NCBI GenBank assembly: GCA_001778235.1
Contig: MFGJ01000001.1
Coordinates: 69,302 to 133,301 of the forward strand
Length of the DNA: 64,000 nucleotides
From: Candidatus Falkowbacteria bacterium RIFOXYC2_FULL_36_12
Lineage (GTDB): Bacteria; Patescibacteriota; Patescibacteriia; UBA11705
Direction: 5' to 3'
Positions 5,734 through 63,945 of the stretch are shown piece after piece (position 1 is the first letter of the stretch; each line of letters opens with the position of its first letter). The position numbers and the translations under genes were made by a program. Below the pieces are notes generated by a model. It was given only the letters and a program-made list of their open reading frames with translations. It did no database searches and was not told the origin of the DNA.

Positions 5734-6540
5734 ATGGCCAGTTTCAATGTGCTAGTAATCGGCGATGTTGTTGGACGACCTGGACGAAAAGCCTTAAAAG
5801 AACTTTTACCAGAACTGAAAGTAAAATATAAACCTGATTTAACAGTTATCAATGGTGAAAATCTGGCTCACGGCTATGGTGTGACTGATGCAATTTTGAA
5901 AGACCTGCAAGAAAGTGGTGTTGATTTCTTTACATCGGGTAATCATATTTTCCAGAACCAGAGAGATCTTAACCAAATATTCAAAAATAACCCAGTTATT
6001 AGACCAGCAAATTATCCGGATGATAAACCGGGTAAAGGCTATAAAATTTTTGATGTTGGTATGGTCAAAGTAATGATTGTTAATTTGCAGGGACAAGTTT
6101 TTTTTCCGCTTGACGAACAAGTCGATAACCCATTTCTGACTTTGGATAAAATATTAAAAGAAGAAAAAGCAGAAAAACCAAAAATTATAATTGTTGACTT
6201 CCACGCTGAAGCAACAAGTGAAAAAAAAGGCTTCGGAGCCTATGCTGATGGAAGAGTAAGTCTGGTTTTTGGGACACATACTCATGTGCAGACTTCGGAT
6301 AATTATATTATGCCAAAAGGCACTGGTTATATTAGTGATATTGGGATGACCGGCATAAAACATTCAAGCCTTGGGATGGATTTTGAAAATGTAATAAGTA
6401 ATTTTGTACATGAAACAACCCTACCAAAACAGATTTCCACAAATGGAAATTGCATTGTTAATGGAATTTTTGCTAAAATAGATGTAGAAAGCGGACAAGC
6501 ATTAGATATTCAGAGAATTGCAGAAGAAGTGGAGGTTTGA
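5734..6540 (+). CDS. ymdB: YmdB-like metallophosphoesterase (2',3'-cyclic-nucleotide phosphodiesterase family)
   Basis: N-terminal VLVIGDVVGRPGR...INGEN metallophosphoesterase signature. Conserved neighbourhood with rny, as in Firmicutes. Confidence 0.75.
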   Translation: MASFNVLVIGDVVGRPGRKALKELLPELKVKYKPDLTVINGENLAHGYGVTDAILKDLQESGVDFFTSGNHIFQNQRDLNQIFKNNPVIRPANYPDDKPGKGYKIFDVGMVKVMIVNLQGQVFFPLDEQVDNPFLTLDKILKEEKAEKPKIIIVDFHAEATSEKKGFGAYADGRVSLVFGTHTHVQTSDNYIMPKGTGYISDIGMTGIKHSSLGMDFENVISNFVHETTLPKQISTNGNCIVNGIFAKIDVESGQALDIQRIAEEVEV

Positions 6541-10806: not shown

Positions 10807-11580
10807 TTACTTTTTTTTCACAACAAGTCTAAGGCGCGGGTAAACTAATTGGTGATGTTTGTCTTGTTGTTTGAGATTAATTTCCACTCGGGATTCTACC
10901 ATAATATAACCTGGCATGAAACTTGAGCTGGAAATCGTAGTTGACACATTGGACAATATATTAGCGACAATTACAGAGACATCGTTTGAAGTATAAACTT
11001 CAAATTTAAGCCTACGCTTCAATTCAAGAACTTCAGAATCGTCTCCAAACAACGGATCACTTTGTTTCAAAGCGGAAAAATTAATCGTGAGAAATTTACT
11101 CATCAAATATGATCTAACATCAATCGGAATAAAGCTAAGACTATTGCGGACAATGTAATCTTTACCTGCGAACTGGCACTCAATATTACGAAAAAATTGT
11201 AAAGCATCAAAGGCAGAATCAATTGAATATAATTTTGTCATCGGATCGAACTGATCAAGAACTAACAATCGATTGCCTGAAGACAACTCATAAACAGCAA
11301 ATAGATATTGTGTTTGCCCATTGTCAACATATTTAATACGAACAATATTGAAATTTTTCAAGAAAACTCTAAAAAAAAGAAAATATGTGAAAGCAACAAA
11401 TAAACATAAAATTGAATAAACAAATACTATGACGATATTAACTTTTGTCGCCAGAATCATAATAAGCAAAATCAGGGCGAGACCGACAACTTCCATGATT
11501 CTCGGTATTAGCAGATTAAACAAATATTTCATCTTAGCGAGATTCTCATATTTTTCAATGAACTTGGCAGTCTGGTCCAT
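10807..11580 (-). CDS. Hypothetical membrane protein
   Basis: Two or three N-terminal hydrophobic helices; no known motif. Confidence 0.45.
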   Translation of the reverse strand: MDQTAKFIEKYENLAKMKYLFNLLIPRIMEVVGLALILLIMILATKVNIVIVFVYSILCLFVAFTYFLFFRVFLKNFNIVRIKYVDNGQTQYLFAVYELSSGNRLLVLDQFDPMTKLYSIDSAFDALQFFRNIECQFAGKDYIVRNSLSFIPIDVRSYLMSKFLTINFSALKQSDPLFGDDSEVLELKRRLKFEVYTSNDVSVIVANILSNVSTTISSSSFMPGYIMVESRVEINLKQQDKHHQLVYPRLRLVVKKK

Positions 11581-29499: not shown

Positions 29500-29640
29500 A
29501 AAAAAACACTCCAGCGAATAGCTGGTGTGTGCGTTTAGAGGAGAGGTTGTTGAAAGTAGTGGCTAGCAATGAAATTTAAATGTAAGTTGTTGATTTGTTA
29601 AAACAAGTTTTTTTTAGAATAAGTGATTGATTACGCTTCG
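29500..29640 (+). repeat. Repeat module A, copy 1. It ends in a hairpin plus T-run. A second copy lies at 63760..63903.
   Basis: cgaatagctggtgtgtgcgtttagagg...gtagtggctagcaatg...gtaagttgttgat...tttttttagaataagtgattgatt is ~80% identical to 63764-63903. Confidence 0.7.
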
Positions 29641-29815
29641 CGTCTTACTTTTTGGTGGCAAAAAGTAAGCAAAAACCACTGGGTGAACAAATGCGAATTG
29701 TTTTTGTCAAGTTCGTGGTTTTGATGACGCGCTTGTTCACCCAGACCCGATGCTTGGCATGTTTGTGGGGTTGAATGTATAAAGTAAGTTATCATTTTGC
29801 TATAGCAGGTTTTTT
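29620..29815 (+). ncRNA. Repeat unit 1 of a tandem structured-RNA-like family. It has a 5' module, a variable stem, a 3' module and a terminator.
   Basis: 5' aagtgattgattacgcttcgcg + perfect hairpin cttactttttggtggcaaaaagtaag + caaaaaccactggg; variable stem gggtgaacaa/ttgttcaccc; 3' cccagacccgatgcttggcatgtttgtggggttgaa; terminator tgctatagca + T-run. Confidence 0.45.
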
Positions 29816-29820
29816 GAAAA

Positions 29821-30020
29821 AAGTGATTGATTGCGCTTTGCGCCTTACTTTTTGATGGCAAAAAGTAAGCAAAAACCACTGGGGGCTTTAATTGCTACTT
29901 ATGAAAATTATTTTGTGTTTTAAACACGGCAAGAAAGCCCCCAGACCCGATGCTTACCGTGTTCGTGGGGTTGAATAATAAAGTATGTGATTGGTATTGC
30001 TAAAGCAAGTTTTTTTGACA
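29821..30020 (+). ncRNA. Repeat unit 2 of the same family. Its variable stem (gggggcttt/aaagccccc) is compensatory to unit 1.
   Basis: Same 5' and 3' modules as unit 1; only the middle differs, with stem pairing preserved; terminator ttgctaaagcaa + T-run. Confidence 0.45.
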
Positions 30021-30107
30021 CCCTGCCTGAAAGCCTTAGTCTGTCTCGACTTCACGATGAAGACGGGCAAGATGCGTTAAATGTTATTGTTGTTTATATA
30101 TTTAAAT

Positions 30108-30318
30108 TTGTCACTCTGAACTTGTTTCAGAGTATAAAGGGATAGCTTGATTATACCTTGATTATACCCTGAAATCCATCTTCGTTAAAACTTCGATGGA
30201 CAAGTAAATTCAGAGCCTGCCCTGAATTAATTTCAGGGGTGACAAGTGAGAGTGTTGGTAGCGCGCATTACGCCCCCAGATTTGCCTTCATCAAGATTAC
30301 GGCAGGCAAGACCCGAGG
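30108..30318 (+). repeat. Composite of the hairpin ccctgaa-N-ttcaggg (inverted and direct copies) plus a ~100-nt conserved element, the long-form 3' module. It is homologous to 58703..58825.
   Basis: ggtgacaagtgagagtgttggtagcgcgcattacgcccccagatttgccttcatcaagattacggcaggcaagacccgaggctggtcatgttcgtggggttt matches 58724-58825 with few substitutions. Confidence 0.65.
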
Positions 30319-30433
30319 CTGGTCATGTTCGTGGGGTTTAATATTACTGAAGTTTTATTTTATTTTTGACAATCTTGCGTATATTGTGTAAGCTGAAAAA
30401 TGATTTTGTCCTTTTCACCAGACCGGAGGGAAA

Positions 30434-33246: not shown

Positions 33247-35001
33247 ATGAGTTCTATTGAAGAATTATTAAAAGATCCAGCAAAATTAAAATCAGGTCAA
33301 GTCAGTGATTCAACTACCAATGATGGGGGAAAAACAAGTATAAAGATAGAAGAAGTTTCAACAAAACAAAAGCTGGAGAAAAAAATGAAAGAAATTTCAA
33401 TCAAAGAAACTGAAAGCAGTGCAAAATCAATTGCGACATCTTCTGGAGTGCCATACATTGATCTGATTGGATTTCCGATCAGCCAAGAGACGATCGCTAT
33501 TATTCCAAAAGATAAATCAATATCCATGAGGGTTATTTGTTTCCTTTATATTGGAGAGGAAATGAGAATTGGGACTACTGAACCAGAGAATGAGGAAATA
33601 AAAGAATACGCATATCAACTTGGAGAAAATAACCGAGCAAAGGTGGAAATTTATAAAATTTCAGAGAATAGCCTGAAGGAAGCACAAAAAGTCTATGATA
33701 AGATTCCTGTTCGGGCAAAAAAGATTGAGGGAGTAAGTGTGTCAGAAGAAGATTTAAATAAATATACAGATATTGGCCGTGATTTCAAAAAATTAAACGA
33801 AACTGTAAAGAAAACTAATATTTCTGACATGGTTTCATTGGTTATTGCGGCGGCGCTCGAATCAGGTTCATCTGATATTCATATTGAAGCAGAAGAAAAA
33901 GATGTAAAAATCCGTTTACGAGTTGACGGGATACTGCATGATGCAGCGGAAATTGAAAAAGATAAATGGTCAAAAATTATTTCCCGTATTAAATTACTTG
34001 CAGGACTAAAAATTAATATTTCGGATAAACCACAGGATGGCAGATTTAGCATTGCAACCAAGGAAGATAAAATTGATGTCAGAACTTCAACCCTGCCAAC
34101 TGCTTATGGTGAAAGCGTGGTGATGAGAATTTTGAATTCCTCTGCCGCGGGAGTTGACTTTGATAAGCTGGGATTGATAGGATTGGCAGCCAAACGGCTT
34201 GAAGAACAGATGGCTAGACCAAATGGGATGATTATAACCACTGGTCCGACCGGTTCTGGTAAGACAACCACTTTGTACTCAATTTTATTTCAATTAAACA
34301 AAGAAGGAACTAAAATAATTACCCTTGAAGATCCAATTGAATATAAACTAAAAGGGATTAATCAAAGTCAAATTGATCATAGCAAACACTATTCATTCGC
34401 TGATGGCTTGAGATCAATTTTGAGACAAGACCCAGATATTGTGATGGTAGGTGAAATGAGGGATAAGGAAACTGCTGATGTTGCGGTAAACGCTGCCTTG
34501 ACCGGTCATTTGGTTCTATCTACTATTCATACAAATAATGCGGCTGGCGCTATCCCAAGGTTTTTAGCCATGGGAGTGAAAGGATTTTTGTTGGCTCCTG
34601 CAATAAACGCGGTTATGGGACAAAGATTGGTTAGAAGAATCTGCCAAGATTGTAAGATAGAATATGAAGCAAAACCTGAAGAATTAGAAAACGCAAAAAA
34701 AATCCTAGAATCCATTCCCGAAGGTCATCCTGATCGGCCTGATTTATCAAATTTGCAGTTCTATACTGGTAAAGGCTGTGAAAAGTGTAATGAGATGAAA
34801 TATAAAGGTAGAGTCGGTATTTATGAAATCATGGTAATGAATAAAGAAATCGAACAGGTAATTTTATCAGAAAAACTGTCTGTCACCCAAATGGAAGAGC
34901 TGGCAATAAAAAATCAAATGCTGACCATGGCACAGGATGGATTGATCAAGGCGATGAAGGGAATGACTACGCTTGAAGAGGTGTTTAGGGTGAGTGAGTA
35001 A
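33247..35001 (+). CDS. pilB: Type IV pilus / type II secretion assembly ATPase (GspE/PilB family)
   Basis: Walker A TGPTGSGKTTTLYS, Asp box, His box, and tetracysteine motif CQDC...CEKC. Confidence 0.85.
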   Translation: MSSIEELLKDPAKLKSGQVSDSTTNDGGKTSIKIEEVSTKQKLEKKMKEISIKETESSAKSIATSSGVPYIDLIGFPISQETIAIIPKDKSISMRVICFLYIGEEMRIGTTEPENEEIKEYAYQLGENNRAKVEIYKISENSLKEAQKVYDKIPVRAKKIEGVSVSEEDLNKYTDIGRDFKKLNETVKKTNISDMVSLVIAAALESGSSDIHIEAEEKDVKIRLRVDGILHDAAEIEKDKWSKIISRIKLLAGLKINISDKPQDGRFSIATKEDKIDVRTSTLPTAYGESVVMRILNSSAAGVDFDKLGLIGLAAKRLEEQMARPNGMIITTGPTGSGKTTTLYSILFQLNKEGTKIITLEDPIEYKLKGINQSQIDHSKHYSFADGLRSILRQDPDIVMVGEMRDKETADVAVNAALTGHLVLSTIHTNNAAGAIPRFLAMGVKGFLLAPAINAVMGQRLVRRICQDCKIEYEAKPEELENAKKILESIPEGHPDRPDLSNLQFYTGKGCEKCNEMKYKGRVGIYEIMVMNKEIEQVILSEKLSVTQMEELAIKNQMLTMAQDGLIKAMKGMTTLEEVFRVSE

Positions 35002-35154
35002 ATTAAAGTAGAAGGTAATTGTAAGTTTAATTTTTGTTTGAGTTGACTTTTTTACTCCACAGATTAGAATCATAACACTATCATAAAACCTAAATACTCA
35101 TATTTCATACTCCTTTTATTCACTTATTATAGCGGATATTAAATACCTAGAATA

Positions 35155-35222
35155 CAAACTTCGCATAAGGCGTAGCCCATTTTGCGAAATTTACTTTTTC
35201 TTTTCGCTACGGCGGACGCATT
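35155..35222 (+). repeat. GC-rich direct repeat, upstream copy, flanking the P-loop kinase gene
   Basis: aacttcgcataaggcgtagcccattttgcgaaatt pairs with the downstream copy aacttcgcattaggcgcagccattatacgcaattc at 35985-36022. Confidence 0.55.
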
Positions 35223-35305
35223 TCTGTAATGAATAAATTGAATTATTTATTTTAAAGAGGGGGAATAAGGAAGAAAACTTTATTAATTTATTATCAAACA
35301 AAAAC

Positions 35306-35881
35306 ATGGCCAAAAGTATATTTATATTCATTTCTGGTTTTGGTGCTACTGGGAAATCTACACTTGGGAAAATTATTTCTGAAAAATTCAATATTCCAAA
35401 CATCGGCAATGATGAAATTAAAGAAATTATTTGGTCTCAAATAGGCTGGGAACATGATAAATCCGAATGGGATAAAGTGGGCAAAATGGCATTTGAATTT
35501 ACCTATTATTTTGTTAATGCCTCCCTGTCCAAAGGGAAAAGCATTATTGCAGAAGCTAATTTCCAGCCAGATAAAAACAATGAGAGATTGAATGAACTGA
35601 AACAGAAATATGGTTGTAAATTGTTACAGATTCATTGTAAAGCCGACAGAGAGGTTATTGTTAATAGGTATAAGGAAAGGTTGGCATCTGAAGATTTTCA
35701 TACTGGGCGTAAGCATGCCATAAAAAATATTTTTGGAGAAGAAAAATTTCTATCGAAAATTGGTATTGGTAGTAGAGTTCTAGATATTGAAGGTGAGACG
35801 CTTGAGATTGATACATCAAATCCAAACACAGTCAACTATGAAGAAATATTTAAATTTATAGAAAAAAATATTAAGGAATAA
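35306..35881 (+). CDS. P-loop kinase-like protein (zeta-toxin / chloramphenicol-phosphotransferase-like NTPase fold)
   Basis: Walker A ISGFGATGKSTLGK close to the N-terminus; ~190 aa, typical of small-molecule or nucleotide kinases. Confidence 0.55.
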   Translation: MAKSIFIFISGFGATGKSTLGKIISEKFNIPNIGNDEIKEIIWSQIGWEHDKSEWDKVGKMAFEFTYYFVNASLSKGKSIIAEANFQPDKNNERLNELKQKYGCKLLQIHCKADREVIVNRYKERLASEDFHTGRKHAIKNIFGEEKFLSKIGIGSRVLDIEGETLEIDTSNPNTVNYEEIFKFIEKNIKE

Positions 35882-35984
35882 GAAAAGAATAAGGAGTCTT
35901 TGTTTTTTGGAACTTCCCGCCTCAGGCGGACAAGCGCACAACAGCGCCTATACGAAATTGCCTGTCGGATAGCTCCGCTACCCG

Positions 35985-36022
35985 TCCGCAACTTCGCATT
36001 AGGCGCAGCCATTATACGCAAT
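35985..36022 (+). repeat. GC-rich direct repeat, downstream copy
   Basis: See the upstream copy; ggcggacg/cgtccgc complementarity adjoins both. Confidence 0.55.
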
Positions 36023-36175
36023 TCAAAAAATATTTTTCTTTTAATTTACGGATCTTTTGATAGGCTTTAATAAGGAATAAATTTGATTTTTTTTTTGATT
36101 AGAGGGGAAATAAAGTGTTTTCTCCGCTATCGCACCGAAAACTATTTATAATAACAGATACTTAACTAAGTTTAT

Positions 36176-37096
36176 ATGAACAATTTACTAGAAATACAAT
36201 CTTTAAACAAAACGCAGCTTACCGCCTTAATCAACAGATCAATAGATTTTAGTAAAAACAAAAAACAGCAATTATTAAAGAATAAACGCTTAGCTCTATT
36301 GTTTTCAGAGGTCTCTTTGAGAACCAAAATGTCGTTTAAAATTGGAATGCAATTATTAGGCGGTATTGCCACAACTGTCTCAATTCCGCACTTAACAAAA
36401 GAATTTGACGGAACAAATAGAGAGGATTTCTTAGATATTTTAAAATCACTGGAAGGTTGGGTAGATGCTTTTGTAATAAGAGATTACACAGGAAAATTAT
36501 TAGAAATGTCATTAAAACATACTAATTTACCTATAATCGATGGCTTTTGCGGTCTTAATCACCCCACACAAACTATTGCAGATCTGGCTATTATTCAAAA
36601 AGAATTTAAAAAAATCAAAAATCTTAAAATATGCTGTGTCTGTCCTCCATTTGGTAGCGGTGTTATGGAATCCTTTGCATACGGTGGGATTATAATGGGG
36701 GCGGATATATATTTCTTGACTCCAGAAAGCAAATATAGTTCTAAAAACAAAAGTTTCAATAAAAAGATTAAAGCATTGGGGAAAAAATGGGGCGGAAAGT
36801 TGACCATAACAACTGATATAAAAGTAGCATTATCAGATGCAAAAATCTTATATGTTGACGAGTGGTGGAAAAATACTAAAAACTTTTTGGATATTAAACT
36901 TGGTAAACTCAAAGTTGACAATGCTTTTTTGCAAAATGCTCTCCCAAATATTAAAATAATGCATTATTTACCAGCTCACCATGATAGAGAAATAACCAAA
37001 GAAATTTTACATTCAAAAAAATCAATAGCTTTTGAGCAAGCCGAGTTCAGATTATATTCTGCAATGGCTAGCTTGGAATATATTTTTAATAGGTAA
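36176..37096 (+). CDS. Divergent transcarbamylase of the ATCase/OTCase fold; substrate unknown
   Basis: SLRTKMSF in place of the STRTR carbamoyl-phosphate motif at the expected position; HPTQ motif; HYLPAHHDREIT in place of HCLPAxRGxE. Confidence 0.6.
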   Translation: MNNLLEIQSLNKTQLTALINRSIDFSKNKKQQLLKNKRLALLFSEVSLRTKMSFKIGMQLLGGIATTVSIPHLTKEFDGTNREDFLDILKSLEGWVDAFVIRDYTGKLLEMSLKHTNLPIIDGFCGLNHPTQTIADLAIIQKEFKKIKNLKICCVCPPFGSGVMESFAYGGIIMGADIYFLTPESKYSSKNKSFNKKIKALGKKWGGKLTITTDIKVALSDAKILYVDEWWKNTKNFLDIKLGKLKVDNAFLQNALPNIKIMHYLPAHHDREITKEILHSKKSIAFEQAEFRLYSAMASLEYIFNR

Positions 37097-37101
37097 TTTT
37101 T

Positions 37102-39042
37102 ATGTCAATTATATCCAAACCATCTTCAGTACAAATTAATGATGAAATTAGATATCAAAAGAAATTAATAAATAAATTTAGATCCTTATCTAATAAATAC
37201 TCAATAAAAATTTTAGATGAAAAATTTATTGTTTATCCGAAAGTATTTGAACCCAATTTGGATTCTGAGATACTTATAAAATCCTTAAAACATTTTAAAT
37301 TTACAAATTTTTTAGAAATCGGTGGTGGGACAGGAATTGTAAGTATTTTTGCGAGTAAATATGCAAAATCTGGGTTAGTTGTTGATATAAATAAAAATGC
37401 GATAAAAAATATTCAGGATAATATAAATTTACATAATTTAAATAAAATACTAACAGTTAATCGCGGTTCTCTTTTTGACAATGTTAGTCAAAAATATGAT
37501 CTAATTATCGCCAATCTTCCATTCATGAAAATAAAATCAGAAGATGTTGTCGCATCTGCTTTTTTTGATGAAAATCTTTCCACATGGAGTACTTTCTTAT
37601 CTCAGGCTTCAGAATATCTAACAGAAAATGGTTCCATATTGACCGTTTTACCAAATTTTTGCGCATTTGATGATATTCTTGAAATGGCTAAAAAAAATCA
37701 TTTTGAATATAAAATCATTGATTCATTAAGGGAAGATTGGAGGGAATTTACGACATTTAAATTATTTAAAAAATCAAATAAAATTTTAGTTGAACAAAGC
37801 AAGAAGATTGCAATATTCCTAAGAATAAATGCACGTAAAAAAAATAAGTATACATATGATACCATTAAAAAACCCTTTTACTTTTATGTTGACGGTTATA
37901 ATGGGAAATTACCCGTGTTTATTTTTTCATCTTTTCCATGCGCTAAATATTGCCAAGGATATTGTACACCTTGTTTATATTCAAACATAACTTGCAGCAG
38001 AGCAAAAAAAGATGAAATATATAATTCATTGATAGTACAAACACAATATATAATAGATAATTTTGACAACCTCATTACTAACAAACAGACAGACGCTGAA
38101 CACAAAAATCTCCATAAAATATATCCCGAAAATAAATTAGTCACCGCAGAGCTATGTGGCGAAGGTTCTTTTTTGGCAAACCCCGAAATACCATCTGAAT
38201 TCAGAAAAAAAATTATTGATATGTTTGTTGAATACTCTCAAAAAGAAAAGCTCAACATGCAACTATTCTTTGAATCAAAAATTTCAGATTTTCTTGAGGT
38301 TTATCAAGAATTTGAAGACCAAAAAGATTTAATTAAAAAATACAATCTTACACTTCTTTTTGGTTTTGAGGCAGTGAATGATTTCACAAGGCAGGTTCTT
38401 TATAACAAGGGCTTACAATTAAGGGACTTTGAAAAAGGAATTAAAAAAGCTCAAGAATTAGGCTTTCGCACAGGCGTTTTTGTCTTTTGCGGTGTACATT
38501 CAATGACGCAAAAAGAAATCATTGAAGACACGAAACAAACCATTGAATATTGCCGAAAGAATAATATTGCCTTTTATTTAATGTTACCAAACTTACAGCC
38601 ATTCACCCTTAATCACTTATTATTTATCAACAATAGATACAATCTGTTAGACCCAAGAACAGTTTTGGAAATAATCAAAATACTTATTGCTGACTCCGAT
38701 GGTACTGACAGTTCTTATTATTTGAACGGACATAACTGGAGCATCGGCGGCTTGACAACACACCCCCAACCAGAAATGTTTCTATTTCAAAACAAAAAAA
38801 ATATTGCTTGTGAGAAATGTTCAAATAGAATCAAAAGGATGATTTATGATCTTGCCAAAAGCTATGATACAGAAAAATTCATGGCAGAAGCAAAAAAACT
38901 GGATACTTGTAAATGCAAAAAAGACTATATTGCATTTACTGAATATGAAGAGCGAAATAAAGAAACCCTGCGGAAGCGAGTAGAAGATAATTTAACTTTT
39001 GCAATGGTAGAAAAAGAAAATTACATTAATACTTTACTATGA
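37102..39042 (+). CDS. Fusion protein: N-terminal class-I SAM methyltransferase-like domain (NLPF motif, HemK/Trm5-like) plus C-terminal radical-SAM domain with extra Cys pairs
   Basis: Motif I LEIGGGTGIV; motif IV DLIIANLPF; radical-SAM CX3CX2C within FPCAKYCQGYCTPC; GGE-like LCGEGSFLANPE; C-terminal CEKC...CKCKKD. Confidence 0.6.
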   Translation: MSIISKPSSVQINDEIRYQKKLINKFRSLSNKYSIKILDEKFIVYPKVFEPNLDSEILIKSLKHFKFTNFLEIGGGTGIVSIFASKYAKSGLVVDINKNAIKNIQDNINLHNLNKILTVNRGSLFDNVSQKYDLIIANLPFMKIKSEDVVASAFFDENLSTWSTFLSQASEYLTENGSILTVLPNFCAFDDILEMAKKNHFEYKIIDSLREDWREFTTFKLFKKSNKILVEQSKKIAIFLRINARKKNKYTYDTIKKPFYFYVDGYNGKLPVFIFSSFPCAKYCQGYCTPCLYSNITCSRAKKDEIYNSLIVQTQYIIDNFDNLITNKQTDAEHKNLHKIYPENKLVTAELCGEGSFLANPEIPSEFRKKIIDMFVEYSQKEKLNMQLFFESKISDFLEVYQEFEDQKDLIKKYNLTLLFGFEAVNDFTRQVLYNKGLQLRDFEKGIKKAQELGFRTGVFVFCGVHSMTQKEIIEDTKQTIEYCRKNNIAFYLMLPNLQPFTLNHLLFINNRYNLLDPRTVLEIIKILIADSDGTDSSYYLNGHNWSIGGLTTHPQPEMFLFQNKKNIACEKCSNRIKRMIYDLAKSYDTEKFMAEAKKLDTCKCKKDYIAFTEYEERNKETLRKRVEDNLTFAMVEKENYINTLL

Positions 39043-39365
39043 TAAAAAACAATATTTGGGGATATCAATTAATCTTAGATTTTCGAAATTGTAATAAAAC
39101 TATTTTTAAAGACGAAGAAAAAATGAAAATGAAACCCTATGGACAACCATTGATTAAAGAGTTTGGCAAAGACAAACTCAAAGGATATTCAGTTTTACAA
39201 TTTATTGAAACATCATCAATTACGATTCATTTTGACAATTTTGGAAATAGAGTTTTTATTGATATTTTTAGCTGTAAAAAATTCAGTAAGCAAAGTGCTG
39301 AAAATTTTTGTAAAAAATTCTTTAACACTAACGATGTAAAGTCATATTTACTGGAAAGATATTAG
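39039..39365 (+). CDS. Pyruvoyl-dependent decarboxylase-like small protein (SpeH/AdoMetDC class 1b-like)
   Basis: IETSSITIHFDNFGNRVFIDIFSC resembles the AdoMetDC self-cleavage/pyruvoyl region (ESHISIHTWPE...VDVFTCG). Overlaps the upstream gene by 4 nt. Confidence 0.45.
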   Translation: MIKNNIWGYQLILDFRNCNKTIFKDEEKMKMKPYGQPLIKEFGKDKLKGYSVLQFIETSSITIHFDNFGNRVFIDIFSCKKFSKQSAENFCKKFFNTNDVKSYLLERY

Positions 39366-39519
39366 TCTTTTTGCTATAACTATAAAGGCAGTAATCGTCT
39401 ACAATAGAAAAATGGTCGATCCCATCGCTTCAACATTAGACCCTGAAGAGACCGGCAAACAAATTTATTAATATTGAATAAAAAACCTATCAAAATACAG
39501 TTAATTGAAAAATATTTTT

Positions 39520-39680
39520 GAACTCACTCCGCTACGCTTCGTGCCACGCTGCGCTTTCCTCCCTTCGGTCGTCAGGGCGTATAATAAGGATTATGAGGAA
39601 AATGGCTCGGCTCGCCATTTTCCCAAATTTGATCCACTTCGTTCCGCAAACTTCTCATAATCCTAACGTTGTGCAAAACA
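39520..39680 (+). repeat. GC-rich structured palindromic element
   Basis: Inverted repeat aaggattatgag/ctcataatcct enclosing the perfect hairpin aaaatggc-tcggctc-gccatttt. Confidence 0.5.
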
Positions 39681-39732
39681 ATAAAAAATGATATAATTAG
39701 AGGATAAAAATTTTTAATTAATTAAGTACAAT

Positions 39733-40044
39733 ATGGAAAGATTAACCAATGAAAAAAATGATGCCATACGTGCTGAGGCGCGACAAAAAGCATTAGAGGA
39801 AGCACGAGAACACGGTTTACAAGTTGGGACAACCGTTGGCTTTTATGACCTTAGAGATAGGATGAGCTATGAATTATTAGAAATTATAGGAGATACTGCA
39901 ATCATTGGATATGAAAATGAACGAGATGGTAAAGTCCGCATAGAAGCTCCCTTACAAGACCTAGTAGATGTAAACCGTGTTCTCAATATTGCTTCCGAAA
40001 TAATGGCCACTAGAAGTAGTATTAGGCCAGAGCAGTGGAATTAA
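39733..40044 (+). CDS. Hypothetical protein (103 aa)
   Basis: ORF with a plausible coiled-coil N-terminus. Confidence 0.35.
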   Translation: MERLTNEKNDAIRAEARQKALEEAREHGLQVGTTVGFYDLRDRMSYELLEIIGDTAIIGYENERDGKVRIEAPLQDLVDVNRVLNIASEIMATRSSIRPEQWN

Positions 40045-40094
40045 AAATTTTTATATTTGAAAGCATTTTTTATTACAGAGTACAACACTGCATA

Positions 40095-40215
40095 GCCGGT
40101 TCGGGCTTTTTACAAAAGCCCTCACCCAAATTGTGCAGGTGTAAGCCTTCGGCTATTATACGACTGCACAACTTCGGCTATGCAGGAATGTTGTGCAAAA
40201 CCGCTCGCACACGCT
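40095..40215 (+). repeat. GC-rich palindromic element
   Basis: ctgcatagccg...cggctatgcag inverted repeat; shares the aacttcgg motif with the repeats flanking the kinase gene. Confidence 0.45.
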
Positions 40216-40363
40216 CCGCGGAACATCAGTTGAGCGCAAATATTAGTGAGTATGATGAATCAAGAAGTTTTCAGGCAAATAAGCTTGACAATGTTGCTCT
40301 AATGCTGTAAGCTGGGATGTTTGATAGAAATAGAAAACACAGCCAAAGGATAGAGGGGTAAAG

Positions 40364-40534
40364 ATGACAGGAACCAAAGTAAGAGATATTCTTAAACTTA
40401 TTGCCAAAAAAAATGCTGCAGATGATTATAAGAGACAACTTTCCGATAGAAAAACTGAAATCGTTAAATTGGGACAATTACCAGCGCAACTGGCTAGACT
40501 AAAATCTTTAAGAGATCAAAAATCGAGTGATTAG
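40364..40534 (+). CDS. Small hypothetical protein (56 aa; MTGTKVRDILKLIAKKNAADDYKRQL...)
   Basis: Short ORF preceded by AGGGGTAAAG; not in the ORF track (<60 aa). Confidence 0.25.
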   Translation: MTGTKVRDILKLIAKKNAADDYKRQLSDRKTEIVKLGQLPAQLARLKSLRDQKSSD

Positions 40535-41379
40535 CTTTCACCCGATTTTTTTAATCTATTGATAACTTTTTGATAGTGCATTAGAAGTATTGGAACGCTT
40601 TCTTTCGGAATATCATCTTGCCACTTTACAATATACTCAACATATTTTTCCAATTGCAAAATAAATTCATTACGAATCATGCTAGCGTATCGACGCAACC
40701 GCTTTTTATCTCCCTCGGTACTGGTTTTTCCTCGTTCTTTTTTCATTAATTCTTCAATCTGAATGGTTGTCTGTGGTGGTAATCCTAAAATAACTTTTGG
40801 CATACGAAATTTACCACAAATATCCGGGTCAGCTTCCAATTGGAAGTATTTAACTCTTTGCAAATAACCTTTTAATATTTCATCGGTAATTTTTTCCTCT
40901 TTGGCCATAATTGTCATCACTTCATCGGTTGAAGCAACATCTACGGCTAAAAATTCGTAACCATGCTTGGCATTATCATCTTCAAGTGCAAGAACAAAAT
41001 CTACTCCATTGGTAAAATCATCATGGAGAGAAGCCGGAGTAATGCAAAACTCACCAGGGAAATCACCATAATTGGCTAATAATTCCATTGAAATGTATTC
41101 AGCTATCTCACTGGTTTCGTGGTAATTCTCTTTTACCCCTGAACCGCGTCGACGAACTGAATCATAAAAAACATCTCCTACTTGATGTCTCTGCGACATT
41201 TTTCTTACTCTTTCAATATCTTTAGCAACTTTTTCTGGTTGGTAAACCCTTTGACCATCTTCATCAATTAGACCCTGGAGGTCTTTAATTCGTGGTCTAG
41301 CTGCATTCCATTCAGAGATTAACTTTTCTGTAAATGTTTCTGGCTGAAACTCCTGAAATCTTTTTTCTGCGAATGCCAT
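40531..41379 (-). CDS. Hypothetical protein (282 aa)
   Basis: ORF only. Confidence 0.4.
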   Translation of the reverse strand: MAFAEKRFQEFQPETFTEKLISEWNAARPRIKDLQGLIDEDGQRVYQPEKVAKDIERVRKMSQRHQVGDVFYDSVRRRGSGVKENYHETSEIAEYISMELLANYGDFPGEFCITPASLHDDFTNGVDFVLALEDDNAKHGYEFLAVDVASTDEVMTIMAKEEKITDEILKGYLQRVKYFQLEADPDICGKFRMPKVILGLPPQTTIQIEELMKKERGKTSTEGDKKRLRRYASMIRNEFILQLEKYVEYIVKWQDDIPKESVPILLMHYQKVINRLKKSGES

Positions 41380-41855: not shown

Positions 41856-41869
41856 AAAATTTAGTTGGG

Positions 41870-41995
41870 TTTCAACAAATTGCAAATCCGCTACAAATCT
41901 ACAAATAGTTGGTTTCAACAAATTGCAAATCCGCTACAAATCTACAAATAGTTGGTTTCAACAAATTGCAAATTCACTACAAATCTACAAATAGT
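41870..41995 (+). repeat. Three tandem copies of a ~41-bp repeat
   Basis: ccgctacaaatctacaaatagttggtttcaacaaattgcaaat x3, nearly identical. Confidence 0.8.
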
Positions 41996-42368
41996 TGGGT
42001 AGTATTCTTTTAAAGGTGACACCGTCATTATTAAATAGTGCCAAGATTCCAAGCTTGAGCCCCGATTGGGATAAGTAACCTTTAACTTGGTCAAAATCCT
42101 TCCTTGATAAACGATCTTTACATTTTAATTCAAGAATAATTTTGTCTTCAACAAGAAAATCAAAGTAATATTGACCTACTACTTCATCTTTAAATTTAAG
42201 CTTCGCACAAAGCTCCTTCGCATGTTTTAAACCAATATCACGAAATTCTTTTGAAACAGCACTCTGGTAATGTTTTTCTTTGTGCCCTGGCCCTAATTCA
42301 TTATAAACCTCAAATAAAACACCCACAATCTTATAACTCAATTCTTTATAAATCACTTTCTCGATCAT
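41985..42368 (-). CDS. GxxExxY-family protein (PD-(D/E)xK-like)
   Basis: GVLFEVY motif and the overall pattern of the GxxExxY family (KEFRDIGL...LELKCK). Confidence 0.6.
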   Translation of the reverse strand: MIEKVIYKELSYKIVGVLFEVYNELGPGHKEKHYQSAVSKEFRDIGLKHAKELCAKLKFKDEVVGQYYFDFLVEDKIILELKCKDRLSRKDFDQVKGYLSQSGLKLGILALFNNDGVTFKRILPNYL

Positions 42369-58618: not shown

Positions 58619-58919
58619 CCATGCACTATAAACAAGTTTAAGTGCATGGCGAGTAAGCTCGCTGTGGGAAAAGTTTCGAGTGAGGAATAAAAATTAATTA
58701 TTTATACCCTGAAACAAGTTCAGGGTGACAGGTGAGTGTGTTGGTGGCGCGCATTACCGCCCCAGACCTGCCTTCATCAAGATTACAGCAGGCAATCCCC
58801 GAGGTTAGTTATGTTCGTGGTTTTATCACGAGAGAAATTGTTTATACCCTGAAACAAGTTCAGGGTGACAAATTGGGAGATACTGAAACCATGCACTATA
58901 AGCAAGTTTAAGTGCATAG
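58619..58919 (+). repeat. Nested direct repeats. The outer hairpin ccatgcactataaacaagtttaagtgcatgg occurs twice. The inner tataccctgaaacaagttcagggtgaca occurs twice. The core is a ~100-nt conserved element.
   Basis: Outer copies at 58619-58649 and 58889-58919; inner copies at 58703-58730 and 58843-58870; core 58724-58825 is homologous to 30238-30318. Confidence 0.7.
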
Positions 58920-63730: not shown

Positions 63731-63754
63731 ACCGCTTCACAGCGGTTTTTTGTT
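63731..63754 (+). terminator. Intrinsic terminator after pnp
   Basis: accgcttcacagcggtttttt. Confidence 0.65.
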
Positions 63755-63759
63755 AACCT

Positions 63760-63945
63760 TAAAACCCACCGACGAATAGCCGGTATGTGCGTTTAAAAGA
63801 AAAACAATTGAATGTAGTGGCTAGCAGTGTAATTTAAGTGTAAGTTGTTGATGTTGCTATGGCAAATTTTTTTGAGAATAAGTGATTGATTTCGCTTTGC
63901 GTGGTCCACCGAAACCACGCACTATAAACAAGTTTAAGTGCATGG
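63760..63945 (+). repeat. Repeat module A, copy 2, followed by a cgtgg...ccacg hairpin and a copy of the cactataaacaagtttaagtgcatgg hairpin
   Basis: ~80% identical to 29500-29640; terminal hairpin shared with 58619-58649 and 58889-58919. Confidence 0.7.

What the first reader, a model, noticed from the sequence alone, without database searches (positions are those of the whole stretch)
35155..36050. P-loop kinase gene bracketed by ~35-bp GC-rich direct repeats with complementary GGCGGACG/CGTCCGC motifs
Upstream aacttcgcataaggcgtagcccattttgcgaaatt and downstream aacttcgcattaggcgcagccattatacgcaattc are ~80% identical direct repeats. Both sit next to complementary ggcggacg / cgtccgc segments. 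The flanks are markedly GC-richer than the genome. The arrangement resembles a gene cassette with recombination-site-like boundaries (attC-like or MITE-like), implying that the kinase gene was inserted as a unit.
Basis: seen in the sequence. Interest (0 to 1): 0.5.

Follow-up and report, generated by a model that had tools for sequence, protein, structure and literature searches.

The report
Hairpin-bounded gene cassette array in Falkowbacteria
The small kinase gene is the first of several genes in a tiny-genome groundwater bacterium that are each bounded by hairpin-forming sites. The sites resemble both integron attC sites and chromosomal dif (Xer) sites, which points to a gene-shuffling system not described for this group, although no recombinase was found.

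Summary
The repeats are real. Window 35157-35191 and 35990-36024 match at 29/35 with one gap, and their 21-nt core has no chance expectation.

They are two copies of one site type, not a symmetric bracket.
- **Site type:** a XerC-arm-like motif (ACTTCGCATAA/ACTTCGCATTA), a GGCGYAGCC spacer, then a TT-starting XerD-arm-like motif.
- **Upstream copy:** it sits at the start of a co-oriented gene array downstream of pilB.
- **Downstream copy:** it is the 3' arm of a roughly 90-nt imperfect hairpin (element A).

Hairpins of the same design follow the next gene blocks (B at 39574-39679, C at 40075-40201). They also flank other genes, such as a restriction-modification pair, in related metagenome contigs. 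Stems differ in sequence but share the form xxxAAC-N1-stem...stem-N3-4-GTT.

Each cassette's first bases are complementary to the box at its own 3' hairpin (1 of 5040 permutations does as well). Sequence shared between contigs ends at the positions where a tyrosine recombinase would cut.

A 28-bp, 11-6-11 dif-like site starts a second array in contig L022. No recombinase gene was found. A home-made canonical attC model gives only sub-threshold hits.

Best reading: a cassette array bounded by attC/dif-like sites, a new variant of a known kind. That the kinase itself moved is inferred, not shown.

The parts
35043..35070 (+). Best promoter-like site of the region (TTGACT-16-TAGAAT). It lies between pilB and the array start and could drive the array.
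   Evidence: 10 of 12 consensus matches. This is a consensus match only, and the total number of such sites in the region is not above the shuffle expectation.
35104..35168 (+). A 65-nt block that is 100% identical to a block downstream of recR in contig L022. It ends exactly at the last base of the XerC-arm-like motif.
   Evidence: Two Logan contigs (L040, L041) end inside it, as expected for a multi-copy repeat.
35158..35190 (+). It reads C-arm-like ACTTCGCATAA (35158-35168), 11-nt spacer GGCGTAGCCCA (35169-35179), D-arm-like TTTTGCGAAAT (35180-35190). The arms are a 9/11 inverted repeat. The inferred crossover positions are after 35168 and after 35179.
   Evidence: The site has the same layout as the right half of hairpin A.
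35180..36011 (+). Putative kinase cassette: D-arm start, leader, kinase gene and hairpin A up to the crossover.
   Evidence: Boundaries follow (contigs diverge after ...GCAGCC). The cassette start TTTTGCGA is complementary to the box of its own hairpin (reverse complement TTGTGCGC) at 6 of 8 positions.
35306..35881 (+). P-loop kinase gene of 191 aa (AAA_33 / zeta-toxin-like), function unknown.
   Evidence: It resembles PDB 2RHM, a putative kinase, at E 4.6e-18. Only one homolog above 35% identity turned up among 5.8 billion proteins.
35917..35929 (+). Small hairpin CCGCC-TCA-GGCGG directly upstream of element A. It is present in the window copy and the first L022 copy, and absent from copy A'.
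35931..36022 (+). Element A, an imperfect hairpin. Left half: CAAGCGCACAA-CAGCGC-CTATACGAAAT (35931-35958). Loop: 35959-35990.
   Evidence: DNA folding gives -28.9 kcal/mol (z -4.8) for the bottom strand and -22.5 (z -3.0) for the top strand. Further copies lie at L002 13571-13651 (94% identical) and in L022 and L003.
36012..39668 (+). Second cassette. It holds a leader with a possible 16-codon upstream ORF (36115-36165), an ornithine-carbamoyltransferase-like gene (36176-37096), a methyltransferase/radical-SAM fusion (37102-39042), an AdoMet-decarboxylase-like gene (39039-39365) and hairpin B.
   Evidence: The cassette start ATTATACGC is the exact reverse complement of GCGTATAAT at the foot of its own hairpin B, 3.5 kb away.
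39574..39679 (+). Element B hairpin. Left half: AGGGCGTATAA-TAAGGA-TTATGAGGAAA. Right half: ACTTCTCATAA (39650-39660), TCCTAACG, TTGTGCAAAAC (39669-39679).
   Evidence: (z -2.8).
39669..40190 (+). Third cassette: a 103-aa gene of unknown function (39733-40044) plus hairpin C.
   Evidence: Start against own box matches at 14 of 20 positions.
40075..40201 (+). Element C hairpin: GTACAAC-A-CTGCATAGCCG...CGGCTATGCAG-GAAT-GTTGTGCAAAAC.
   Evidence: -39.4 kcal/mol, z -7.9; 11-bp stem, spacers of 1 and 4 nt.
40191..40540 (+). Terminal unit. It starts with TTGTGCAAAACCGCTCGCACACGCTCCGCG, the same 30 nt that follow hairpins E5 and E6 in L002 and L022, and carries a 56-aa ORF (40364-40534). It has no 3' hairpin and abuts a convergent gene.

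Best explanation
**What it is.** The window comes from a Candidatus Falkowbacteria genome (candidate phyla radiation, CPR). The kinase gene is the first unit of a co-oriented array of gene cassettes between pilB and tsaE (window about 35158-40540).

**How the units are bounded.** Each unit ends in an imperfect hairpin of variable sequence and conserved design: [xxxxAAC]-1 nt-[10-11-bp stem]...loop...[stem]-3-4 nt-[GTTxxxx...]. The right half of every hairpin carries three parts:
- a conserved XerC-arm-like motif (ACWTCGCATA);
- a spacer of 8-11 nt;
- a TT-starting XerD-arm-like motif (TTAGCTGAAAT, TTGTGCAAAAC, TTTTGCGAAAT and similar).

**Inferred mechanism.** A tyrosine recombinase of the Xer/IntI clade acts on the folded strand, most likely the bottom one. 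Folding pairs the two halves into a dif-like core of about 6 bp and bulges out the extra 3-4 nt. The enzyme exchanges strands at the (G/A)|TT junction, as integron integrases do at attC sites. Excision between neighbouring sites would release a circle holding one cassette and its hairpin. Insertion would occur at a double-stranded 11-6-11 dif-like site at the head of an array.

They are the head site of the array, carrying an A-type spacer, and the right half of the kinase cassette's own hairpin.

**Shown here:** the anatomy, its recurrence around other genes, the complementarity between each cassette's two ends, and where shared sequence ends between contigs.

**Inferred:** recombination itself, the single-stranded substrate, the enzyme, and that the kinase cassette has moved.
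For: 1. **The repeat is real and not chance**.
2. **Hairpins.** The downstream copy is one arm of a hairpin. Six of seven hairpins fold better as bottom-strand DNA.
3. **Shared design with unrelated stems.** The strict form AAC-N1-stem>=10...stem-N4-GTT occurs 4 times in 89.6 kb of non-redundant sequence, against 0.02 in shuffles. All the hairpins lie on the gene strand, downstream of ORFs.
4. **Circular-permutation signature.** The first 20 nt of each of 7 cassettes match the reverse complement of the box at that cassette's own 3' hairpin better than those of other cassettes: mean 11.7 against 7.95 of 20. Only 1 of 5040 permutations reaches the observed sum. Examples are ATTATACGC/GCGTATAAT across 3.5 kb and 17 of 20 positions for the L022 lipoprotein cassette.
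5. **Where shared sequence ends.**
   - The window, L002 and L003 are identical through ...GGCGCAGCC and diverge at the TT-arm.
   - The window and L022 share 65 nt that end exactly at ...CGCATAA.
   - The unit starting TTGTGCAAAACCGCTCGC... follows three different hairpins, starting exactly after the G.
6. **A dif-like head site.** In L022 the same 65-nt block is followed by ACTTCGCATAA-AAGGAG-TTAGCTAAAAT. This 11-6-11 site matches the E. coli and B. subtilis dif arms at 16 of 22 positions and ties for best in that locus (reference sequences from PMC3025954).
7. **Cargo typical of accessory genes.** It includes a near-orphan kinase, a restriction-modification pair and several proteins with no family match. 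Core genes flank the arrays.
8. **Not terminators or known RNAs.** The hairpins are not terminator-like and match no Rfam family.
Against: - No tyrosine recombinase gene lies in the 64-kb window or next to either array.
- A covariance model built from 7 class 1 attC sites gives no significant hit. That model recovers a held-out attC at 28.8 bits, but its best scores here are 9.5 bits (E 3.1) on E4 and 7.6 bits on E5.
- The right halves have spacers of 8-11 nt, which no known Xer site has in double-stranded form.
- The kinase is always found in the same place, and no empty site was seen.
- The alternative junctions in L002 and L003 could be assembly chimeras through the 96-nt identical copies of element A. 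L029, from the same sample as L002, begins inside A.
- Leaders that start at the crossover are shared by unrelated genes, so the units are not simply one gene plus one site.
- Similarity to dif is modest. Three 28-mers in the window reach the same score by chance.
Confidence: 0.6

Rival explanations
1. It is a canonical integron cassette cluster (CALIN). The hairpins are true attC sites served by an IntI integrase encoded elsewhere in the genome or since lost.
For: - The AAC...GTT triplets and the G|TT junction are present, and two elements carry the textbook box GCCTAAC.
- The hairpins fold better on the bottom strand.
- Three sites lie less than 4 kb apart on one strand, which meets the CALIN rule (PMC4889954).
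- The best sub-threshold hits of the canonical attC model fall exactly on E4 and E5, end to end and on the right strand.
Against: - No hit is significant (E 3.1 and 9.3), and elements A, B and C are not found at all.
- The central spacer is base-paired with a 1-versus-4-nt bulge, instead of the unpaired central spacer plus extrahelical bases that define attC (PMC5027507).
- Conserved 11-nt arms are not an attC feature.
- No intI gene lies nearby, and very small genomes are reported to lack complete integrons (PMC4889954).
Confidence: 0.2
2. It is a chromosomal counterpart of the Acinetobacter dif-module system. The units would be double-stranded modules bounded by inversely oriented XerC/XerD sites and shuffled by the host's own Xer recombinases, with no single-stranded hairpin involved.
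For: - The left halves of the hairpins and the L022 head site fit the 11-6-11 layout.
- Each hairpin can be read as two inverted sites around a very short module, which gives the alternating orientation described in PMC13141974.
- No dedicated recombinase would be needed, which fits its absence here.
Against: - The junctions seen between contigs lie in the right halves, whose 8-11-nt spacers are wrong for double-stranded Xer sites.
- The two halves are complementary at non-conserved positions, and the bulge always lies on the same arm. That pattern fits folding.
- Which arm is C and which is D is ambiguous for the left halves.
- Dif modules are described only on Acinetobacter Rep_3/OrfX plasmids (PMC13141974).
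Confidence: 0.12
3. The elements are ordinary intergenic repeats with no role in gene mobility. They would be REP/MITE-like palindromes or RNA-level hairpins that spread or are homogenised in an AT-rich genome, and the apparent synteny breaks would be assembly artefacts at repeats.
For: - Several contigs end inside the repeats.
- The window itself holds another GC-rich repeat family.
- The kinase context is invariant.
- Leaders are shared by unrelated genes.
Against: - Each cassette's start is complementary to the box at its own 3' hairpin (1 of 5040 permutations).
- Unrelated stems keep the same exact geometry (4 observed against 0.02 expected).
- All elements are co-oriented with the genes.
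- Shared sequence ends at cleavage-type positions.
- No T-tract follows the hairpins.
- The bottom-strand folding bias argues against an mRNA structure.
- Element A has no terminal inverted repeats.
Confidence: 0.15

Closest known systems
Integron gene cassettes and attC sites, including clusters without an integrase (CALIN)
   Same: - A co-oriented array of mostly small accessory genes, each followed by an imperfect palindrome of variable sequence and conserved architecture.
- AAC/GTT triplets at the foot of the hairpin.
- A junction at (G/A)|TT.
- The first bases of a cassette are complementary to the box at its own 3' site.
- The bottom strand folds better.
- A variable terminal loop of 7-130 nt.
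   Different: - No IntI was found.
- The central spacer is paired, with a 1-versus-4-nt bulge, rather than unpaired with extrahelical bases in the L box.
- The arms are 11 nt, conserved and dif-like.
- The head site is a 28-bp dif-like site after a core gene, not an attI next to intI.
- One cassette is a 3.6-kb, three-gene unit.
- The host is a CPR bacterium with a very small genome.
- A canonical attC model does not score the elements significantly.
Acinetobacter dif modules (pdif sites, XerC/XerD)
   Same: Gene modules are separated by XerC/XerD-like sites in alternating orientation. The cargo is accessory, for example toxin-antitoxin or resistance genes there and restriction-modification genes here. 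No dedicated recombinase sits next to the modules.
   Different: - These arrays are chromosomal and in a distant phylum.
- Every second 'module' is only a short non-coding loop, so the two flanking sites form a hairpin.
- One site of each pair has a spacer of 8-11 nt instead of 6 nt.
- There is no Rep_3/OrfX plasmid backbone.
Mobile elements that integrate by exploiting Xer (IMEX), such as CTX phage of Vibrio cholerae
   Same: A folded single strand forms a Xer-type site with an imperfect central region. Exchange of a single strand followed by replication would give the kind of junctions seen here. These elements form tandem arrays at a dif-like site. This comparison rests on established knowledge and on PMC3442271 and PMC4246890.
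   Different: There are no phage or replication genes. The arrays are not at the replication terminus, because GC skew keeps one sign across the window. Many different short units occur, rather than one element.
REP/BIME and MITE-type intergenic palindromes
   Same: GC-rich intergenic palindromes present in several copies.
   Different: Stem sequences differ between elements. There are no terminal inverted repeats or target duplications. Orientation relative to the genes is strict, and the ends show the cassette-type complementarity described above.

Membership tests
Integron attC / CALIN | Conserved 5'-AAC-3' / 5'-GTT-3' triplets at the base of an imperfect hairpin, with recombination at G|TT (PMC5027507) | tested here: met
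   AAC...GTT is present in C, E4, E5 and E6. B has AAT...GTT. A and A' have AAC...ATT. Contigs diverge at the (G/A)|TT position.
Integron attC / CALIN | Full box consensus RYYYAAC / GTTRRRY | tested here: not met
   Only E4 and E5 carry GCCTAAC. The other boxes are AGCTAAC, GCACAAC, GTACAAC and GTATAAT. The right-hand boxes are GTTAGCT, GTTGTGC and ATTATAC.
Integron attC / CALIN | Unpaired central spacer plus extrahelical bases in the L box, and a variable terminal structure | tested here: not met
   The spacer is base-paired over 5 bp, with a bulge of 1 nt on one arm and 3-4 nt on the other. No L-box extrahelical bases are evident. A variable terminal loop is present.
Integron attC / CALIN | Bottom strand more stable than the top strand (G:T pairs) | tested here: met
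   Six of seven hairpins are more stable on the bottom strand, by 1.2-6.7 kcal/mol. Element C is the exception. This is weak support: sign test p is about 0.06.
Integron attC / CALIN | Recognised by an attC covariance model | tested here: not met
   A home-made model from 7 class 1 attC sites finds a held-out aadA5 attC at 28.8 bits (E 1e-4). On the elements here it scores at most 9.5 bits (E 3.1 on E4), and A and B are not reported. C gets only partial sub-threshold matches on both strands (at most 9.3 bits, E 0.4-4.7). IntegronFinder's own model was not available.
Integron attC / CALIN | [quoted passage not shown] | tested here: met
   A, B and C lie at 35.9, 39.6 and 40.1 kb, all on the + strand.
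Integron (complete) | intI gene (tyrosine recombinase with the IntI-specific domain) next to attI | tested here: not met
   No Phage_integrase-type gene appears among the called genes of the window or around the arrays in L002, L003 and L022. The rest of the genome could not be searched.
Integron gene cassette | [quoted passage not shown] | tested here: met
   Own pairings exceed non-own pairings: 1 of 5040 permutations reaches the observed sum at 20 nt, and 12 of 5040 at 8 nt.
dif modules (pdif) | 28-bp sites: an 11-bp XerC arm, a 6-bp spacer and an 11-bp XerD arm | tested here: inconclusive
   The L022 head site fits the 11-6-11 layout and matches known dif arms at 16 of 22 positions. The hairpin left halves also fit the layout. 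The right halves have spacers of 8-11 nt, and chance 28-mers reach the same score.
dif modules (pdif) | Sites alternate in orientation so that C and D modules alternate (PMC13141974) | tested here: inconclusive
   Each hairpin can be read as two inverted sites around a short loop. The assignment of C and D arms for the left halves is ambiguous.
dif modules (pdif) | Carried on Acinetobacter Rep_3/OrfX plasmids | tested here: not met
   The context is chromosomal, between pilB and tsaE or after recR, in Ca. Falkowbacteria.
dif modules / IMEX | Recombination depends on host XerC/XerD | not testable with these tools
   No Xer gene is in the sequence held here, and no experiment is possible.
IMEX | Integration at the chromosomal dif site in the terminus region | tested here: not met
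   Cumulative GC skew rises almost steadily across the window, with no lasting change of direction near 35 kb. Two different loci carry the head site.
MITE / REP | Terminal inverted repeats with target duplication, or many near-identical short palindromes | tested here: not met
   The ends of element A (CCGCCTCAGG... and ...GGCGCAGCC) are not inverted repeats. The stems of A, B, C, E4, E5 and E6 are unrelated in sequence.
Intrinsic terminator | GC-rich stem followed by a T-tract | tested here: not met
   The scan of 34900-40700 finds no terminator-like site at any of the hairpins.

The most novel reading that the evidence does not exclude
CPR bacteria carry chromosomal cassette arrays without an integrase. 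In them the housekeeping Xer recombinases, or a close relative, recombine folded single-stranded hairpins that mimic dif. That would make the system a living intermediate between dif/IMEX recombination and the integron attC x attI system, and a route for gene exchange in genomes thought too small to hold integrons.
Probability: 0.22. Interest if true: 0.85.

Novelty: new variant of a known kind. Interest (0 to 1): 0.62.

Why it matters
- **A gene-exchange mechanism for CPR bacteria.** Their genomes are about 1 Mb, and little is known about how they gain and lose accessory genes. A site-specific cassette system would supply a mechanism and explain a hypervariable locus.
- **A possible evolutionary link.** The sites combine hallmarks of integron attC sites (hairpin, AAC/GTT, end complementarity) with hallmarks of dif (11-nt arms, an 11-6-11 head site). 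Integron integrases are thought to have evolved from Xer-like recombinases that act on double-stranded DNA (PMC4792948). This system could show how folded attC sites arose from dif-like sites.
- **A gap in current tools.** Very small genomes are reported to lack complete integrons (PMC4889954). Dif modules are described as unique to Acinetobacter (PMC13141974). My full-text searches found no paper describing integron-type cassette arrays in CPR bacteria. Detection tools trained on canonical attC sites would probably miss these elements.

Tried and rejected
- **Known RNA families.** Rfam at gathering thresholds over the window, and at permissive E-values over 35000-36200, returned only three tRNAs and chance matches. 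tRNA and tmRNA searches explain nothing here.
- **Genome collection, DNA pattern.** A scan for the repeat core found 0 hits.
- **Genome collection, pilB relatives.** The scan found only distant, GC-richer genomes with no comparable locus.
- **Viral contigs.** A C-arm...D-arm pattern gave 6 hits with no hairpin context, most or all apparently in coding sequence, taken as chance.
- **Empty site or second context for the kinase.** All contigs that carry the exact pilB gene and extend far enough downstream also carry the kinase. The only close kinase homolog sits on a 1.3-kb contig with a different repeat system.
- **Recombinase next to the arrays.** Pfam scans of all unassigned neighbours, including the 282-aa gene at the array's right end, found none.
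- **Extending the L002 array.** This failed because the exact 507-aa protein is not a cluster representative. That protein belongs to a large CPR family, so it may not be cargo.
- **L024 upstream junction.** It lies inside the methyltransferase gene and joins GC-rich, foreign-looking DNA. I set it aside as a probable chimeric contig.
- **Terminators, MITEs and a simple tandem duplication of a promoter region.** All were considered and rejected, for the reasons given under rival explanations and the membership test.
Full report
**Source and setting**

The window is AT-rich at 34.6% GC. Exact copies of its proteins are deposited as Candidatus Falkowbacteria, a candidate phyla radiation (CPR) lineage, from Rifle groundwater metagenomes.

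The finding covers a 191-aa P-loop kinase gene at 35306-35881. Upstream lies pilB, a type IV pilus ATPase gene, at 33247-35001. Downstream lies an ornithine-carbamoyltransferase-like gene at 36176-37096.

**Check of the observation**

They match at 29 of 35 positions with one gap.
- The 21-nt core occurs exactly twice in the window, against 0.00 expected by chance.
- GGCGGACG (35211-35218) and CGTCCGC (35983-35989) exist.
- The downstream flank is strongly GC-rich at 57.5%. The upstream flank is only mildly so at 43.7%.
- The similarity continues in patches for about 115 nt into a shared leader.

**What the downstream copy is**

It is the 3' arm of an imperfect hairpin, element A, at about 35931-36022. 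As DNA the bottom strand folds to -28.9 kcal/mol (z -4.8). The top strand folds to -22.5 kcal/mol (z -3.0).

Two more hairpins follow the next gene blocks on the same strand. Element B lies at 39574-39679 and element C at 40075-40201, with z -7.9 for C.

Related contigs carry further hairpins:
- E4 in L003;
- E5 and a second copy of A (A', 94% identical) in L002;
- E6 in L022.

Their stems are unrelated in sequence: CTGCATAGCCG, CAGTATATGC, GCGTGTATGCG and ACCGATATCAG. The design is the same in each: xxxxAAC, 1 nt, a 10-11-bp stem, a loop, the complementary stem, 4 nt, then GTT. This strict form occurs 4 times in 89.6 kb of non-redundant sequence, against 0.02 in shuffles.

None of the hairpins looks like an intrinsic terminator. 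None matches an Rfam family.

**Cassette logic**

In integrons the crossover lies inside the right-hand box. The first bases of a cassette are therefore complementary to the left-hand box of the site at its own 3' end. The same pattern holds here.

- The second cassette starts ATTATACGC. Its own hairpin B, 3.5 kb downstream, begins GCGTATAAT.
- The restriction-modification cassette of L002 starts TTAGGCGA. Its hairpin E5 begins TCGCCTAA.
- The L022 lipoprotein cassette matches at 17 of 20 positions.
- The kinase cassette matches at 6 of 8 (TTTTGCGA against TTGTGCGC).

Over seven cassettes, own pairings average 11.7 of 20 against 7.95 for non-own pairings. Only the identity permutation out of 5040 reaches the observed sum.

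**Where shared sequence ends**

- The window, L002 and L003 are identical from pilB through the kinase and through ...GGCGCAGCC. They then diverge at the TT-starting arm into three different downstream contexts.
- The unit TTGTGCAAAACCGCTCGC... follows three different hairpins (C, E5, E6), beginning exactly after the G.
- Upstream of the kinase, a 65-nt block (35104-35168) is 100% identical to a block downstream of recR in L022. It ends exactly at ...ACTTCGCATAA.

These end points fall on the two sides of the spacer. That is where a tyrosine recombinase would cleave.

**Resemblance to dif**

I aligned all right halves on the crossover.
- On the left is a conserved motif, AC(A/T)TCGCATA.
- On the right is a conserved TT-starting 11-mer: TTAGCTGAAAT, TTGTGCAAAAC, TTTTGCGAAAT (kinase cassette) or TTATACGCAAT (OTC cassette).

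In L022 the 65-nt block is followed by ACTTCGCATAA-AAGGAG-TTAGCTAAAAT. This is an 11-6-11 site. It matches the arms of both E. coli dif and B. subtilis dif at 16 of 22 positions (reference sequences from PMC3025954) and ties for the best such 28-mer in that locus. The frequency of an equal score is about 2-8e-5 per position.

The hairpin left halves, read on the bottom strand, also fit the 11-6-11 layout. The right halves have spacers of 8-11 nt. Folding would pair the halves and bulge out the extra 3-4 nt, leaving a core of about 6 bp. This step is my inference.

**Tests against known families**

*Canonical attC.* I took seven class 1 attC sites from four plasmids and built a covariance model from them.
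- The model finds a held-out aadA5 attC at 28.8 bits.
- With filters off, its best hits in the related loci (L002, L003, L022) are exactly E4 (9.5 bits, E 3.1) and E5 (7.6 bits, E 9.3). Neither is significant.
- A and B are not reported, and C gets only partial sub-threshold matches (at most 9.3 bits); the window's top hit (12.4 bits, E 0.064) lies inside the methyltransferase gene.
- The central spacer is paired and bulged, unlike the unpaired central spacer plus extrahelical bases that define attC sites (PMC5027507).

*Recombinase.* No tyrosine recombinase gene lies in the window or beside the arrays.

*Dif modules.* They share the alternating Xer-like sites but are described only on Acinetobacter Rep_3/OrfX plasmids (PMC13141974).

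*Terminus.* The arrays are not at a replication terminus. GC skew keeps its sign across the window.

**Caveats**

- The alternative junctions in L002 and L003 could be assembly chimeras through the 96-nt identical copies of A. L029 begins inside A. L040, L041 and L042 end inside the repeats.
- That would still show the elements are multi-copy with sharply defined edges. It would remove the direct evidence for rearrangement.
- No contig lacks the kinase.
- Unrelated genes share leaders that start at the crossover. The units are therefore more complex than one gene plus one site.

**Cargo**

- The kinase resembles PDB 2RHM, a putative kinase. It has only one homolog above 35% identity.
- Other units carry a restriction-modification pair, a SET-domain protein and several proteins with no family match.

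**Verdict**

The best-supported reading is a cassette array bounded by hairpin sites that combine attC and dif features, with the kinase as its first cassette (confidence about 0.6). The recombinase is unknown. It could be an IntI encoded elsewhere, the host Xer proteins, or something else.

My full-text searches found no paper describing integron-type cassette arrays in CPR bacteria. Very small genomes are reported to lack complete integrons (PMC4889954). I rate this a new variant of a known kind.

Noticed in passing
window 29579-30345, 58640-58820, 63743-63902; L003 14930-15622: A second, unrelated family of GC-rich intergenic repeats, for example ...CCCAGACCCGATGCTTGGCATGTTTGTGGGG.... There are several copies downstream of groEL and near the tRNA-Arg genes. 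The same family lies next to rpsP/trmD in L003.
   Followed up: no
window 36115-36165; L002 about 10814-10858: The leaders of the OTC cassette and the restriction-modification cassette share a possible short upstream ORF after an AGAGGGG motif (GTG; MFSPLSHRKLFIITDT* and MFSPLSFRKRFIIN*). It includes a synonymous CCG/CCA difference and overlaps a GTTTTC...GAAAAC hairpin. A related leader precedes the kinase at 35227-35270.
   Followed up: partly
L044 108-133, 760-785, 847-872, 1217-1242: The only close homolog of the kinase (55% identity) sits on a 1.3-kb contig from another, GC-richer organism. A 26-nt direct repeat, CCAAAGGCATCGGCTTCCAGGCGTAA, occurs four times there. Three copies end the called ORFs (peptide ...G(F/S)QA*), and the fourth lies between genes. 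This may be a different cassette-like repeat system.
   Followed up: partly
L002 13263-13340 against L002 10720-10810: The restriction-modification cassette carries an inverted copy of its own 5' leader, about 75% identical, just before its 3' hairpin. The unit is therefore flanked by inverted repeats of more than 100 nt, not only by the short boxes.
   Followed up: partly
L024 1-3067 joined to window 37667: One SPAdes contig joins GC-rich, foreign-looking DNA (a Mur-ligase-like gene and a hydrolase gene) to the middle of the methyltransferase/radical-SAM gene. It is probably a chimeric assembly.
   Followed up: partly
window 41862-41912 and 41949-41998: A direct repeat of about 50 nt (94% identical) lies between tsaE and the PD-(D/E)XK gene. 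The called tsaE product differs in length between assemblies (154, 175 or 176 aa).
   Followed up: no
window 35206-35220, 35973-35991, 36122-36140, 39526-39545; L002 13365-13385: A short motif (C)TCCGCTAYCG / TCGCTACGG recurs in cassette leaders, in the loop of hairpin A and upstream of hairpins B and E5. Its role is unknown.
   Followed up: no
window 6292-6318: ACTTCGGATAA-TTATA-TTATGCCAAAA, inside the ymdB-like gene, looks dif-like but has a 5-nt spacer. It is probably chance.
   Followed up: no
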